Of a stretch of 64,000 nt of DNA, positions 35,493 to 37,538 are shown piece after piece. A model generated the notes under the pieces. The model was not told the DNA's origin and searched no databases. It saw only the letters and a list, made by a program, of their open reading frames with translations. Source of the stretch: a virus. A program made the position numbers and the translations under genes. The stretch is from positions 32,001 through 96,000 of the IMG/VR virus record IMGVR_UViG_3300043446_004967. One strand, written 5' to 3'. Numbering within the stretch: position 1 is the stretch's first letter; each line of letters starts with the position of its first letter.

Positions 35493-35660
35493 TTTTTTTC
35501 TTCTAAAACCAGCCTACCCTCTTTCGTGTCGCTCGTCAAGAGACAAATTTGGCGAACACATAAAAAAACCGCCCCGTGCTCAGGGCGGTTCCCTTGTAAA
35601 ACCCCCTTATTCCTTCCGGATGAAGCCCATGATAAGGCCCGGCGCAGCGGAGTCGAACCC
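35493..35660. repeat. 168-bp direct repeat, copy B
   Basis: Near-identical to 33404-33571. Confidence 0.92.
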
Positions 35661-36308
35661 AGATACCCCGAAGGACAACGGGTCTTTCGGGTCCGCTACG
35701 GATCCCCTGTTCGCGGCAGCCGCAAGAACCACCAGCTTGGCCTTCGGGTGGCTCATGCGCAGAAGATCCCGCAAGGTCCACTCGTTGCGATTGTAGTATT
35801 TAAGTGCCTGCCAAACTAACGCCTCGCCGGACTTCTCAGTAAACCAACGGGCGACCGCATCCCGCAAACCGCGACCCCATCCCCGCAACTTGTCCGAAAA
35901 ACTTACAAACATTAGAATGTCGGTGCCCGTGCGGGCGACCGAGGGCAAGGCAGCTAAGGCCAGCCCCTTCGCCTCCGGCGTGGAGCACGACGCGACCAAC
36001 GCTAAGGCAAAGATAACAGTATCCCGCTTCGCCGCCCTGCCGGCCATGCTGATCTCTACGATACGCGCGATAACGCGCACTGCGTCCCGCTCACACAATG
36101 TGAGCAGGATTATCGCGTTCTCTTTAGTCAATGCCTCCGGACGCACGTAATACGTGCCGTTTTGCGATCCCGTTGTTAAAAAACGGTCCAACTGCTCCCA
36201 CGGGTCCACCTCGTAGTAGGCGCCCCCGGCATTATTGGGGACTTGCCCCGGCAGAGGCTTTTTCGTAGAAAGCCCGCTCCCGCGCAAAATATCGCCATAC
36301 TTCGTCAT
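35607..36308 (-). CDS. Ro60/TROVE (Rsr) homolog with a large in-frame internal deletion
   Basis: QVPNNAGGAYY..LDRFLTTGSQNGTYY, ARTGT, GWGRGLR, KY..R.EWTLRDLLRMSHPK joined directly to the C-terminal AKLVV..SVADP.D..GFDSAAP. Confidence 0.9.
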   Translation of the reverse strand: MTKYGDILRGSGLSTKKPLPGQVPNNAGGAYYEVDPWEQLDRFLTTGSQNGTYYVRPEALTKENAIILLTLCERDAVRVIARIVEISMAGRAAKRDTVIFALALVASCSTPEAKGLALAALPSVARTGTDILMFVSFSDKLRGWGRGLRDAVARWFTEKSGEALVWQALKYYNRNEWTLRDLLRMSHPKAKLVVLAAAANRGSVADPKDPLSFGVSGFDSAAPGLIMGFIRKE

Positions 36309-36432
36309 TTTTTACGTCCTCTTTTCTCTTGTGTGCAGGCGTAACCCTGCACTGCCGCACGCTCAGCCGTCAACTACGGGAACCGCGAATAAGGCAAAAT
36401 GAAAAAAACGAGGGGGGTGGAGAAGAAAAGGC

Positions 36433-36533
36433 GCGGGGCACGCTCAGCAGAAAAGCGATTAATAGCAGACGGCAATGCTGCTAATAAAACTGCGACTGTC
36501 ACACAGTGGCTTGCTGCTGGTCTGGTGCCCCGC
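36433..36533 (-). ncRNA. Structured RNA element 4 (long closed hairpin, different class)
   Basis: Terminal stem GCGGGGCAC/GTGCCCCGC with internal hairpins. Confidence 0.5.
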
Positions 36534-36543
36534 ATAAAAGTAA

Positions 36544-36628
36544 CTCTAAACGAATTAGACATGCTTGTCGCACAGGAGCATATGATTACAAGTCATAACC
36601 TATGCGCTACGGCCCAACCCGTTTAGAG
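36544..36628 (-). ncRNA. Y-RNA-like (Yrl-type) element 3
   Basis: Closing stem; GGGCCG...GGUUAU...AUGUC; UAUGA-CUUGUAA-UCAUA hairpin. Confidence 0.7.
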
Positions 36629-36636
36629 ATACGGTA

Positions 36637-36717
36637 TAAACAAACTGGACATTAGTTGCCCACAGGAGGGTATGTATTTCAAGGACATAACCTGCGAGCA
36701 TCGGCCCAGTTTGTTTA
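36637..36717 (-). ncRNA. Y-RNA-like (Yrl-type) element 2
   Basis: 12-bp closing stem; GGGCCGAUG...GGUUAU...AUGUCC. Confidence 0.7.
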
Positions 36718-36719
36718 AG

Positions 36720-36802
36720 TATCGGGCATAAATCACCAGCCGGAGAGGGCGCAAGGCCCCATTTAGTATCTTGAATGATAACCAGCCGGTAGCGGCTCGA
36801 TA
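36720..36802 (-). ncRNA. Y-RNA-like (Yrl-type) element 1
   Basis: Closing stem; GAGCCG...GGUUAUC...AUGCCC. Confidence 0.65.
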
Positions 36803-36808
36803 AAAAGA

Positions 36809-36837
36809 ACTCTATCGCAAAGCCCCGAACGACGCAA
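36809..36837 (-). promoter_or_regulatory. Promoter of the Y-RNA/Ro60 operon
   Basis: TTGCGT-17-TAGAGT immediately upstream of element 1. Confidence 0.6.
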
Positions 36838-37055
36838 GCTTTTTTTGAAAAAAATCAGCCGAACGCCAGTGCAATTTTTACTATACTATAGTCTAATAGG
36901 TATGTATCTAATTGAGGTTACTCTCGCCTAAGCGAGAGTAACCTACGTGGCGTGGCCTTACGGTCGAGAAATATACCACAATTACGGCGCCGCCCGAGGC
37001 GACGCGCTTAAATTCCCATTTACTATCTACTATTTGCCGGAAGGGAGACGGCCCG

Positions 37056-37538
37056 TTAACGGATAAGCCCCGTTCGCACGTATAAATGCAAATCCTCCGG
37101 AAGCTCCTGTACCTCCCGGCTCTCCATAAAATAACGGTAAGCCGCCTTTCCCGCCGCTTCAACCTTCTCTCTCTTATCCCAGGAAAAATCCTCTGGGCTA
37201 TGCCATGAGGACCAGCCAATGGAGACAATGTAAACTGGCCGTGCCTTGCACGTAAACGAAGAAAACTCCGAACTCGCCCCGTTCTCCTTCAAAAATGGCA
37301 GACAGTAACGTTTAGCCTCGTCGCGTAGTAGCAGCGCGGGAGATACAAAAGCGTCAATGTAGTGCCCGTGGCCCGGAAACTCCGTCGTCAAAGACACTAA
37401 AGCCGTCTGAGCCGCGTTATATACGGCTGAGTATGCCTTATTAAAATCGGACTCCCCTTTCTCGGAGAGGAAGCGGCAAGAGAACCTGTCTAACCGTAAT
37501 AATCCGTCGACCTTATCGGAGGAAATGAACACCGGCAT
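37056..37538 (-). CDS. Hypothetical protein
   Basis: ORF with RBS. Confidence 0.55.
   Translation of the reverse strand: MPVFISSDKVDGLLRLDRFSCRFLSEKGESDFNKAYSAVYNAAQTALVSLTTEFPGHGHYIDAFVSPALLLRDEAKRYCLPFLKENGASSEFSSFTCKARPVYIVSIGWSSWHSPEDFSWDKREKVEAAGKAAYRYFMESREVQELPEDLHLYVRTGLIR

What the first reader, a model, noticed from the sequence alone, without database searches (positions are those of the whole stretch)
36544..36802. The Y-like RNAs display different anticodon-like loops
At the equivalent position after GGU, element 3 has a 5-bp stem closing CU-UGU-AA (Thr-like) and element 2 has CU-UGA-AA (Ser-like). Both are canonical 7-nt anticodon loop patterns. Element 1 has a looser AUUCAA loop. 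Hypothesis: Ro-stabilised anticodon decoys that absorb host anticodon nucleases or tRNA-modifying toxins, with a variable loop as the specificity element.
Basis: inference. Interest (0 to 1): 0.8.

Follow-up and report, generated by a model that had tools for sequence, protein, structure and literature searches.

The report
Phage Y RNAs with anticodon-like loops
Three small RNA genes in front of a phage's damaged Ro60 gene are Y RNAs, and one of them carries a loop built like a tRNA anticodon loop, a design that recurs beside Ro60 genes in many phages and bacteria and that I did not find described in any paper.

Summary
On the minus strand, three adjacent stem-loop RNAs (E1 36806-36722, E2 36721-36634, E3 36632-36540) lie upstream of an internally deleted Ro60 gene.

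- **E3:** it has exactly the claimed 5-bp stem and 7-nt loop CUUGUAA.
- **E2:** the heptamer CUUGAAA sits in a 9-nt loop, because the flanking C and U cannot pair.
- **E1:** it has a 4-bp stem and a 6-nt loop.

A covariance model built from the three elements finds about 470 relatives, all on the Ro60 strand, next to Ro60 genes in phages, metagenomes and bacterial genomes.

In short members, the hairpin after the conserved GGUUAUC box most often has a 7-nt loop. CU...AA is by far the commonest loop type. Its flanking-base frequencies equal those of 478 real anticodon loops from the same loci. Positions 34-35 are the most variable columns in a near-invariant clade.

The decoy mechanism is untested. 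The loop class also occurs in bacterial chromosomes, stems are often only 3 bp, G36 is absent, and this phage's Ro60 lacks about 300 residues.

This scan has reported Y-RNA arrays on other DNA before. None of the eight visible notes mentions this loop pattern, and two reports on this stretch are withheld.

The parts
36722..36806 (-). E1, the first Y RNA of the array (two-hairpin head). It has a lower helix AUCGAGC/GCCCGAU and an upper helix ACCGGCUGG/CCGGCUGGU.
   Evidence: CM R1 58.3 bits and R2 41-43 bits; fold
36767..36780 (-). E1 head hairpin UAUC[AUUCAA]GAUA: 4-bp stem and 6-nt loop. It starts inside the UUAUC box.
36746..36760 (-). E1 second, GC-rich hairpin GGGGC[CUUGC]GCCCU. The two-hairpin layout recurs in L020, L040, L078, L089, L165 and L166.
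36634..36721 (-). E2, the second Y RNA. It has GGGCCGA in the lower helix, then an upper helix, then GGUUAUG.
   Evidence: CM R1 99.6 bits and R2 67.4 bits; fold z -6.2
36671..36689 (-). E2 head hairpin UAUGU[CCUUGAAAU]ACAUA. The heptamer CUUGAAA is flanked by a C-U mismatch.
36540..36632 (-). E3, the third Y RNA.
   Evidence: CM R1 77.2 bits and R2 52.1 bits; fold z -5.4
36581..36597 (-). E3 head hairpin UAUGA[CUUGUAA]UCAUA: a canonical 5-bp stem and 7-nt CU-NNN-AA loop.
   Evidence: The same loop occurs on a different stem in L008.
36809..36837 (-). Putative promoter of the array: TTGCGT, 17 nt, TAGAGT. This would start transcription at or near the first base of E1's lower helix. Inference only.
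   Evidence: Read from the sequence. It matches 8 of 12 consensus positions, below the scan's threshold, so one search does not list it.
36432..36533 (-). About 100 nt of further structured RNA between E3 and Ro60, closed by a 9-bp GC-rich stem and followed by a U-rich tract. It may be the terminator or 3' element of the array. It is not Y-like.
   Evidence: fold -46 kcal/mol, z -4.2; inverted repeat I8; terminator-like site; no R2 match
35607..36308 (-). Ro60/TROVE gene with an in-frame internal deletion. It retains residues about 1-187 and 490-535 of a 537-aa relative.
   Evidence: Pfam TROVE plus vWA_Ro60 tail; BLASTP against P0001, 74% and 78% identity in two blocks

Best explanation
E1-E3 are three tandem short Y RNAs, the partner RNAs of Ro60. 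They are transcribed on the minus strand just ahead of the phage's Ro60 gene.

Anatomy. Each element has four parts:
- a lower helix formed by its two ends, carrying the Ro60-docking motif (GGGCCG on the 5' side, AUG(U/C)C(C/U) on the 3' side; UUG(U/C)CC in most relatives);
- an upper helix;
- the Y-RNA 'UUAUC' box (UUAUG in E2 and E3, with a compensating change on the other strand);
- a small head hairpin that begins inside that box.

Family pattern. In about 19% of short members (39 of 206) this head is a 3-6 bp stem closing a 7-nt loop C-U-N-N-(A/U)-A-A. Its flanking-base frequencies equal those of genuine anticodon loops, and positions 34-35 vary freely. The same hairpin also occurs in some long, tRNA-like YrlA-type members, at the position of Chen's 'V' stem-loop. 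E3 is a textbook example. E2 is a derivative with a mismatched closing pair. E1 belongs to the 6-nt, two-hairpin variant.

Likely mechanism (inferred). The lower helix docks on Ro60. The head presents an anticodon-stem-loop look-alike to a protein that reads anticodon loops, such as a modification enzyme or an anticodon-loop nuclease. It would act as a tether or a competitive ligand, by analogy with YrlA, whose head mimics the other half of tRNA.

What is shown and what is inferred:
- Shown: the anatomy, the family membership, the loop statistics and the covariation of the helices.
- Inferred: Ro60 binding, the U-turn fold, and any protein partner.

My confidence by step is about 0.9 for Y-RNA identity, 0.85 for the loop being a conserved module, 0.4 for true anticodon-loop mimicry in function, and 0.15 for the decoy version.
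For: Identity as Y RNAs:
- A model built from the three elements alone (R1) gives 55 matches at E<=1 in the window plus 80 viral Ro60 loci. All 51 matches outside the window lie on the Ro60 strand, mostly directly upstream of Ro60.
- The second-round model R2 gives 147 matches (three of them the window's own), 155 and 175 in viral, metagenome and bacterial-genome Ro60 loci. All are on the Ro60 strand.
- The two helices are 89.5% paired, against 34-45% when the partner is slid, with 833 cells changed on both sides.
- GGUUAUC occurs in 166 of 270 unique elements. UUAUC is the known loop-start motif of nematode sbRNAs and vertebrate Y RNAs (PMC4450293 and PMC4726728).
- Homologs L042:4239-4311 and L057:2172-2245 reach Rfam's gathering score for the nematode RNA family RF01656, which I take to be sbRNAs (my knowledge). 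A YrlA match lies at L042:4661-4725.

The loop:
- 7 nt is the commonest loop size next to the box, in 45 of 115 hairpins. Composition is C 64%, U 89%, A 78% and A 71% at loop positions 1, 2, 6 and 7, with A at position 3 in 2%.
- 478 real anticodon loops from the same loci give C 64%, U 89%, A 81%, A 71% and A34 3%.
- CU...AA is the top of 256 possible end patterns: 11.0 of 84 cluster-weighted hairpins, against 3.0 for the next.
- This replicates in bacterial genomes (11 of 46) and with loop-blind regex detection (25 of 98, with 111 hits on the Ro60 strand and 0 on the opposite strand).
- CU..AA ends occur only with 7-nt loops: 39, against 0-2 for every other length.
- There are 31 distinct hairpins with many different stems and 15 different triplets.
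- In a near-invariant clade of 32 elements (many lying in tRNA arrays), positions 34 and 35 have entropies of 1.99 and 1.76 bits. These are the top two of 68 columns, whose median is 0.375. Loci whose Ro60 genes are 92% identical differ at both positions.
- The same hairpin sits right after the box in 19 long YrlA-type elements.

Precedent:
- Phage phiLo Ro60 binds two upstream Y-like RNAs and PNPase (PMC12135203).
- Bas63 Ro60-like gp130 counters a defence system (PMC11482910).
- YrlA has been suggested as a possible competitive inhibitor of an anticodon nuclease (PMC7790460).
Against: - Only about a fifth of short elements have the strict loop. Other head types exist, for example AUUUGGA-type loops.
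- Stems are 3 bp in a third of cases, not the 5 bp of tRNA.
- G36 is absent in 31 Y hairpins but makes up 36% of real CU..AA anticodon loops. The loop is therefore not a free copy of anticodon loops in general.
- In this window only E3 is canonical.
- Rfam gives no match to E1-E3 even at E<=10.
- The adjacent Ro60 lacks about 300 residues, so the local ribonucleoprotein may not form.
- None of the neighbouring genes that matched a family is tRNA- or RNA-repair-related.
- Hypervariability at positions 34-35 is also what simple lack of constraint would give.
- There are no expression, binding or modification data.
Confidence: 0.5

Rival explanations
1. The heads are Ro60-stabilised anticodon decoys that soak up host anticodon nucleases or tRNA-modifying toxins, and the triplet sets which enzyme is absorbed.
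For: - The loop statistics equal those of anticodon loops.
- The triplet is the variable part, differing between near-identical relatives.
- Arrays carry different triplets, for example UGU and UGA here and UGA and GUC in L088.
- GUN triplets, the colicin E5 target class (my knowledge), are frequent: 9 of 31.
- Hughes et al. raised the possibility that YrlA competitively inhibits an anticodon nuclease (PMC7790460).
- A phage Ro60-like protein counters a defence system (PMC11482910).
Against: - The same heads occur in chromosomal Ro60 loci of Verrucomicrobia, Chloroflexota, Armatimonadota and Alphaproteobacteria, so they are not a phage counter-defence speciality.
- Many stems are 3 bp.
- G36 never occurs.
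- This phage's Ro60 is truncated.
- No defence or anti-defence gene was recognised nearby.
- No cleavage or binding data exist.
Confidence: 0.15
2. The head is a generic U-turn heptaloop. It serves as a structural cap or as the contact for Ro60's usual partner (PNPase or another exoribonuclease). Its likeness to anticodon loops is convergent, because C-U...A-A is simply the stable way to build a 7-nt U-turn loop. The middle bases point to solvent and drift.
For: - Known Y-RNA heads bind PNPase in D. radiodurans and phage phiLo (PMC4201824 and PMC12135203).
- Short 3-bp stems are common, and other head types can substitute.
- The restriction of position 36 to A or U looks like a stacking requirement rather than tRNA copying.
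- Free variation at positions 34-35 fits lack of constraint.
Against: - The match to real anticodon loops holds at four flanking positions and also in the avoidance of A34.
- Particular loops, such as CUGUUAA and CUGCUAA, recur on unrelated stems. This suggests the triplet is not always free.
Confidence: 0.28
3. The loop is a pairing device. The U-turn presents 3-5 bases for loop-loop (kissing) contact with a target RNA, such as a tRNA anticodon or another Y RNA of the array, and so guides Ro60 and its nuclease to it.
For: - The variable triplet sits in a conserved presentation frame.
- E1's loop UUCAA is complementary to UUGAA in E2's loop.
- U-turn loops in antisense RNAs are known to speed pairing (my knowledge).
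Against: - The E1-E2 complementarity is only 5 bp, mostly A-U, noticed after the fact, and expected by chance at about 1%.
- No consistent complementary partner was found for the common triplets among tRNAs of the same loci.
- No target is known.
Confidence: 0.07

Closest known systems
Bacterial and phage Y RNAs of the YrlA/YrlB type (Chen et al. 2013 and 2014, PMC4201824; Rfam RF02553)
   Same: - They are encoded next to Ro60 on the same strand, often several in a row and processed from one precursor.
- The two ends form a long helix carrying a GNCGA-type Ro60 motif.
- They are built modularly, as a docking stem plus a variable head.
[quoted passage not shown]
   Different: - E1-E3 have no T arm, D arm or acceptor-like stem, and give no Rfam YrlA match.
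- YrlA explicitly lacks an anticodon loop (bioRxiv 10.1101/312249). Here the head is an anticodon-loop look-alike.
- The CU-NNN-AA head is not described in the papers I could read.
Thermus phage phiLo Ro60 with Yrl1 and Yrl2 (PMC12135203)
   Same: A phage Ro60 gene is preceded by tandem Y-like RNAs. Binding to Ro60 and host PNPase was shown experimentally.
   Different: That paper does not describe an anticodon-like loop ('anticodon' does not occur in its text). Ro60 there is full length, while here it is internally deleted. There is no detectable sequence relation to this window's array.
Vertebrate Y RNAs and nematode stem-bulge RNAs (Rfam RF00019 and RF01656)
   Same: They share three motifs in the same order: a GG(G/U)CCGA lower helix, CUUG(U/A)CC on the return strand, and the UUAUC box at the start of the loop domain. 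Two phage homologs reach the RF01656 gathering score.
   Different: E1-E3 themselves do not match these models. UUAUC reads UUAUG in E2 and E3. The eukaryotic loop domains are larger and are not reported to be anticodon-like.
D. radiodurans Yrn1 'anticodon arm' (Chen et al. 2014)
   Same: It is a Y RNA head containing a 5-bp stem that was likened to an anticodon arm. Its 6-nt loop resembles E1's.
   Different: In Yrn1 the arm sits between D-like and T-like arms of a tRNA-like domain. Here it stands alone on the upper helix, and in E3 and many homologs the loop has the full 7 nt with the tRNA-type flanking bases.
tRNA anticodon stem-loop
   Same: E3 has a 5-bp stem and a 7-nt loop with C32, U33, A37 and A38. 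Family-wide frequencies at those positions equal those of real tRNAs, and A34 is avoided.
   Different: There is no tRNA body. Stems are often 3-4 bp. G36 is absent. ARAGORN and the Rfam tRNA model do not call these hairpins.

Membership tests
Y RNA (Ro60 partner RNA) | Encoded close to a Ro60/TROVE gene, usually on the same strand | tested here: met
   The array ends 232 nt upstream of the TROVE ORF 36308-35607 on the same strand. All relatives lie on the Ro60 strand.
Y RNA (Ro60 partner RNA) | The 5' and 3' ends pair into a long helix carrying the conserved Ro60-binding motif (GGUCCGA or GNCGAA type) | tested here: met
   GGGCCGA in E2, GGGCCGU in E3 and GAGCCGC in E1 lie in a covarying lower helix. 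The family is 89.5% paired, against 34-45% in controls. The match to the published GNCGAA motif is exact only up to GNCGA in E2.
Y RNA (Ro60 partner RNA) | Physical binding to Ro60 and dependence on it for stability | not testable with these tools
   This needs pull-down or RIP. The local Ro60 lacks about 300 residues.
Y RNA (Ro60 partner RNA) | Match to a curated Y-RNA covariance model (RF00019, RF01656 or RF02553) | tested here: not met
   There is no match to E1-E3 at E<=10. The link is indirect, through my own models, to homologs that do match RF01656 and RF02553.
YrlA (tRNA-like Y RNA) | T arm with a UUCGA-type loop, D arm, and acceptor-like stem-loop | tested here: not met
   The folds show a single head hairpin (two in E1) with no T or D loop. 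Long relatives do have UUCGA(A/C)U loops.
Anticodon stem-loop mimic | 5-bp stem closing a 7-nt loop | tested here: inconclusive
   E3 meets it. E2 has 5 bp but a 9-nt loop. E1 has 4 bp and 6 nt. In the family, 7 nt is the commonest size, but stems range from 3 to 6 bp.
Anticodon stem-loop mimic | Pyrimidine 32, U33, purine 37 and A38, with a free triplet at 34-36 | tested here: met
   It is met in E3 and in the inner heptamer of E2. Family frequencies equal those of 478 real anticodon loops. The exception is position 36, which is restricted to A or U and is never G.
Anticodon stem-loop mimic | Recognition by enzymes that act on anticodon loops (modification or cleavage) | not testable with these tools
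   This needs modification mapping or enzyme assays.
Anticodon-nuclease decoy / counter-defence RNA | Genomic or functional link to a tRNA-targeting defence or to RNA repair | tested here: not met
   Recognised neighbours are a helicase, a cytosine methylase, a RuvC-like resolvase, an exonuclease and a UvsX-like recombinase. Seven of the sixteen ORFs searched had no match. The loop class also occurs in bacterial chromosomes.

The most novel reading that the evidence does not exclude
A widespread class of short Y RNAs in phages and bacteria carries a true anticodon-stem-loop mimic on a Ro60-docking stem. It is the missing half of the tRNA mimicry already known for YrlA. Its two central bases are diversified to match particular anticodon-loop-reading enzymes. 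Ro60-Y RNA particles would then act as decoys, tethers or tripwires in conflicts that target tRNA anticodon loops.
Probability: 0.2. Interest if true: 0.8.

Novelty: new variant of a known kind. Interest (0 to 1): 0.62.

Why it matters
Y RNAs are modular: one end docks Ro60, and the other end decides what Ro60 is brought to. For bacteria and phages, the only well-defined heads so far are the PNPase-binding module and the YrlA tRNA-elbow mimic, whose partner is unknown.

A second recurring head that copies the anticodon loop, with a variable centre, would link Ro60 directly to the anticodon-loop biology already suspected around it. That includes rsr-rtcB repair operons induced by tRNA halves, and Ro60 genes lying inside tRNA arrays.

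It also gives simple, testable predictions: position-37 or position-34 modification, and cleavage or competition with tRNases. In addition, short phage and bacterial Y RNAs share the UUAUC box and both helix motifs with animal Y RNAs. This bears on whether the two groups are homologous.

Tried and rejected
- **Plus-strand reading.** Rejected. The folds are weaker, and the model matches the plus strand only at E 0.1, against 1e-17 to 1e-23 for E3 and E2 on the minus strand.
- **Rfam.** It finds nothing in the region at the gathering score or at E<=10.
- **BLASTN against phage records.** Searching 35600-37060 gave no match.
- **Ro60 protein in viral contigs.** The window's short Ro60 found no relative. 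An alignment of full-length relatives was needed.
- **Exact-pattern scan of viral contigs.** A motif shared by E2 and E3 gave three matches, all chance hits inside coding or unrelated sequence.
- **The look-up of encoding contigs.** I therefore could not read the contig of the closest Ro60 relative (P0001, 74% identity), and the one metagenome scan did not return it.
- **T-loop reading of the head.** Rejected. Long relatives have UUCGA(A/C)U, but the short heads have C at position 1, A at position 7 and a variable centre.
- **Model bias as the source of the pattern.** Rejected. By my reading of the score tables, most CU-NNN-AA carriers score 36-58 bits against a threshold near 20. A loop-blind regex also reproduces the enrichment.
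- **Triplets matching tRNA genes in the same loci.** No relation was seen.
- **Other copies in the phage.** There are none beyond the three.
- **Annual Review on bacterial Ro60 (PMC10870794).** It is not held, so my literature check is incomplete.

Full report
**What is in the window**

The window is bases 32001-96000 of a 110,897-bp viral contig with direct terminal repeats. Between a 160-aa ORF (37538-37056) and a TROVE/Ro60 ORF (36308-35607), both on the minus strand, lie about 750 bp without a convincing ORF. Read on the minus strand, the stretch 36806-36540 holds three abutting elements: E1 36806-36722, E2 36721-36634 and E3 36632-36540.

Each element folds into a long helix made by its two ends, an internal loop, a second helix and a small apical hairpin.

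| Element | Energy (kcal/mol) | z-score | Plus-strand energy |
|---|---|---|---|
| E3 | -39.1 | -5.4 | -28.2 |
| E2 | -34.6 | -6.2 | -24.6 |
| E1 | -28.0 | -1.3 | -26.8 |

The plus-strand folds are weaker. E2 and E3 are 71% identical over 38 nt, and all three share a 19-nt block ending in GGUUAU.

**Checking the claim**

- **E3:** it has exactly what was described, UAUGA[CUUGUAA]UCAUA at 36597-36581.
- **E2:** it has UAUGU[CCUUGAAAU]ACAUA at 36689-36671. The heptamer CUUGAAA is there, but the bases flanking it are C and U, so the loop as folded has 9 nt.
- **E1:** it has UAUC[AUUCAA]GAUA (4 bp, 6 nt) plus a second GC-rich hairpin.

Only one of the three loops is therefore a canonical 5-bp, 7-nt CU-NNN-AA hairpin. 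Within the window alone this is weak evidence.

**Are they Y RNAs?**

Rfam finds nothing here, even at E<=10, and ARAGORN calls no tRNA here. I built a covariance model from the three elements alone (R1). I searched it against 80 viral loci that encode Ro60 relatives (found with an alignment of full-length homologs).

- R1 gave 55 matches at E<=1. All 51 matches outside the window lie on the Ro60 strand, mostly just upstream of the gene.
- A second model built from those matches (R2) found 147 matches in the viral loci (three of them the window's own), 155 in 80 metagenome loci and 175 in 80 bacterial-genome loci. Every one is on the Ro60 strand, often in tandem arrays of up to six or more.
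- The two helices are 89.5% paired across 123 distinct sequences, against 34-45% with the partner slid. There are 833 cells changed on both sides, against 124-206.

Elements fall into two size classes: a short class (60-97 nt) and a long class (over 97 nt, mostly 105-160 nt). In the long class the first 7-nt loop is a T loop, UUCGA(A/C)U. One nearby element matches Rfam YrlA below threshold.

Conserved motifs are GGGCCGA on the way up, (C/U)UUG(U/C)CC on the way down, and GGUUAUC at the top of the upper helix (166 of 270 unique elements). UUAUC is the motif described at the 5' end of the loop domain of nematode sbRNAs and vertebrate Y RNAs (PMC4450293 and PMC4726728). Two phage homologs reach the gathering score of the nematode RNA family RF01656, which I take to be sbRNAs.

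E1-E3 are therefore short Y RNAs of a very large family found in bacteria and phages. Tandem Y-like RNAs upstream of a phage Ro60 are a known arrangement (phage phiLo, PMC12135203; Chen et al. 2014, PMC4201824). This scan has also reported such arrays on other DNA.

In short elements, the hairpin that starts in or just after GGUUAUC most often has a 7-nt loop (45 of 115). The table compares those 45 loops with 478 real anticodon loops called by ARAGORN in the same loci.

| Loop position | 45 Y-RNA 7-nt loops | 478 real anticodon loops |
|---|---|---|
| 1 (tRNA 32), C | 64% | 64% |
| 2 (tRNA 33), U | 89% | 89% |
| 3 (tRNA 34), A | 2% | 3% |
| 6 (tRNA 37), A | 78% | 81% |
| 7 (tRNA 38), A | 71% | 71% |
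| Loops matching CU...AA | 44% (20 of 45) | 37% |

Several further checks support the pattern:

- **Rank among end patterns.** I counted every hairpin with at least 3 bp and a 7-nt loop near the box, and weighted clusters of related elements as one. CU...AA is the top of the 256 possible end patterns, with 11.0 of 84 against 3.0 for the next.
- **Replication.** The result holds in the bacterial-genome set (11 of 46). It also holds when elements are detected by a regex that looks only at the flanking motifs (111 hits on the Ro60 strand, none on the other; 25 of 98). It is therefore not an artefact of a model seeded with E2 and E3.
- **Length specificity.** Loops that start CU and end AA number 39 at length 7 and 0-2 at every other length from 3 to 11.
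- **Diversity.** There are 31 distinct hairpins with many different stems and 15 triplets. GUU (6), GCU (4), CGA (3) and UGA (3) lead. E3's loop recurs on a different stem in L008, and E2's heptamer recurs in L132, L088 and L199.
- **Homology of the hairpin.** The same hairpin also sits directly after the box in 19 long, YrlA-type elements. This is the place of the 'less-conserved V stem-loop' of Chen et al..

**The variable centre**

One clade of 32 short elements is otherwise almost invariant. Many of its members lie inside long tRNA gene arrays. In it, loop positions 34 and 35 have entropies of 1.99 and 1.76 bits. These are the two highest of 68 columns, whose median is 0.375. Loci whose Ro60 genes are 92% identical in DNA differ at both positions (L139 and L152), or at four loop positions (L152 and L157).

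This fits a specificity element under diversifying pressure. It fits simple lack of constraint equally well. The sample is too small and too interrelated to tell the two apart.

**Where the likeness stops**

- Stems are 3 bp in 11 of 31 hairpins, 4 bp in 8, 5 bp in 10 and 6 bp in 2.
- Position 36 is A or U in 29 of 31 and never G, whereas G36 makes up 36% of real CU..AA anticodon loops.
- Only about 19% of short elements (39 of 206) have the strict loop. Other heads exist, among them a recurrent AUUUGGA-type loop (16 elements) and 6-nt loops like E1's (19 of 115).

The restriction to A36 or U36 would fit the determinants of the two bulky A37 modifications, i6A and t6A. That is my own knowledge, not tested here. 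It could just as well be a stacking requirement.

**Context in this phage**

The Ro60 ORF aligns to a 537-aa relative in two blocks: residues 3-187 at 74% identity and residues 490-535 at 78%. Whether it can still hold Y RNAs is unknown.

The neighbours that matched a family are a DEAD/Suv3-like helicase, a C5 cytosine methylase, a RuvC-like resolvase, an exonuclease and a UvsX-like recombinase. None is an RNA ligase, kinase or known tRNase, and seven of the sixteen ORFs searched matched nothing. The whole phage has only two tRNA genes, Ser-GCU and Met-CAU, and no further Y elements.

E2 and E3 are the only two family members with UUAUG instead of UUAUC. In both, the G pairs with a C where relatives have C paired with G, a compensated change that supports the hairpin stem.

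**Mechanism**

Shown here: the anatomy, the family membership, the covariation of the helices, and the anticodon-loop-like statistics with a variable centre.

Inferred:

- The lower helix docks on Ro60, as in animal and bacterial Y RNAs.
- The head is the effector module.
- A head that copies the anticodon loop engages something that reads anticodon loops.

YrlA copies the T, D and acceptor part of tRNA and 'lacks the anticodon loop' (bioRxiv 10.1101/312249). The short class would supply the complementary half.

A decoy for anticodon nucleases is one version. It has a published relative: Hughes et al. raised the possibility that YrlA competitively inhibits the nuclease that cuts tRNAs after DNA damage (PMC7790460). 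I rate it at about 0.15, for three reasons. The same heads sit in ordinary bacterial chromosomes of many phyla. Stems are often too short for a faithful mimic. Nothing in the searched neighbourhood points to tRNA conflict.

A generic U-turn cap, or a PNPase contact with an unconstrained centre, is the main rival (0.28). A loop-loop pairing device is a minor one.

**Limits**

- The key Annual Review on bacterial Ro60 is not held.
- I found no paper describing anticodon-like loops in short Y RNAs, but that search covers open-access text only.

Noticed in passing
window 36432-36533 (-): About 100 nt of strongly structured RNA lies between E3 and the Ro60 start codon (-46 kcal/mol, z -4.2). It is closed by a 9-bp GC-rich stem and followed by a U-rich tract. 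It is not Y-like by my models. It may be a terminator or a fourth small RNA.
   Followed up: partly
window 36800-36814 and 36534-36548: A 15-nt repeat (87% identical; on the minus strand TAGAGTT.(C/T)TTTTAT) sits just before E1 and again at the 3' end of E3. The first copy supplies the TAGAGT of a possible TTGCGT-17-TAGAGT promoter (36837-36809). The second copy could be a second promoter or a processing signal.
   Followed up: no
window 36771-36776 (E1 loop) and 36676-36684 (E2 loop), minus strand: E1's loop UUCAA is complementary to UUGAA in E2's loop, so the neighbouring Y RNAs could form a 5-bp kissing contact. This is weak, was noticed after the fact, and would arise by chance about 1% of the time.
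   Followed up: no
L042:4239-4311, L057:2172-2245 and the family at large: Short phage and bacterial Y RNAs share all three animal-type motifs in order: the GG(G/U)CCGA helix, the UUAUC box and the CUUG(U/A)CC return strand. Two of them pass Rfam's gathering score for the nematode RNA family RF01656. A 2015 review calls bacterial Y RNAs not homologous to vertebrate ones (PMC4726728).
   Followed up: partly
31 CU-NNN-AA hairpins in loci L006-L223: Position 36 of the anticodon-like loops is A or U in 29 of 31 hairpins and never G, whereas 36% of real CU..AA anticodon loops from the same loci have G36. A never occurs at position 34.
   Followed up: partly
e.g. L055:2357-2443, L084:2339-2425, L160:2209-2293, L137:1-63: A second recurrent head type occurs in short Y RNAs: loops containing UUUGG or UUGGA (16 elements). 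Their UUGG could pair with the conserved CCAA of the 3' internal loop.
   Followed up: no
L098, L140, L143, L154, L127, L092: In this clade, Ro60 and its Y-RNA arrays lie inside long tRNA gene arrays (up to 12 tRNAs in 6.5 kb). These include unusual anticodons: Ile-UAU, Phe-AAA, and a UUA 'stop' tRNA call.
   Followed up: no
window 35607-36308 (-): The Ro60 deletion joins residue about 187-189 (HPK) to about 490-492 (P(R/K)AK) of the full-length relative. The short shared peptide at the junction suggests deletion between microhomologies.
   Followed up: partly
window 36915-36944: A perfect 13-bp hairpin with a 4-nt loop lies downstream of the 160-aa ORF and upstream of the array. It has no U tract. 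It may be a terminator or a protein-binding site.
   Followed up: no
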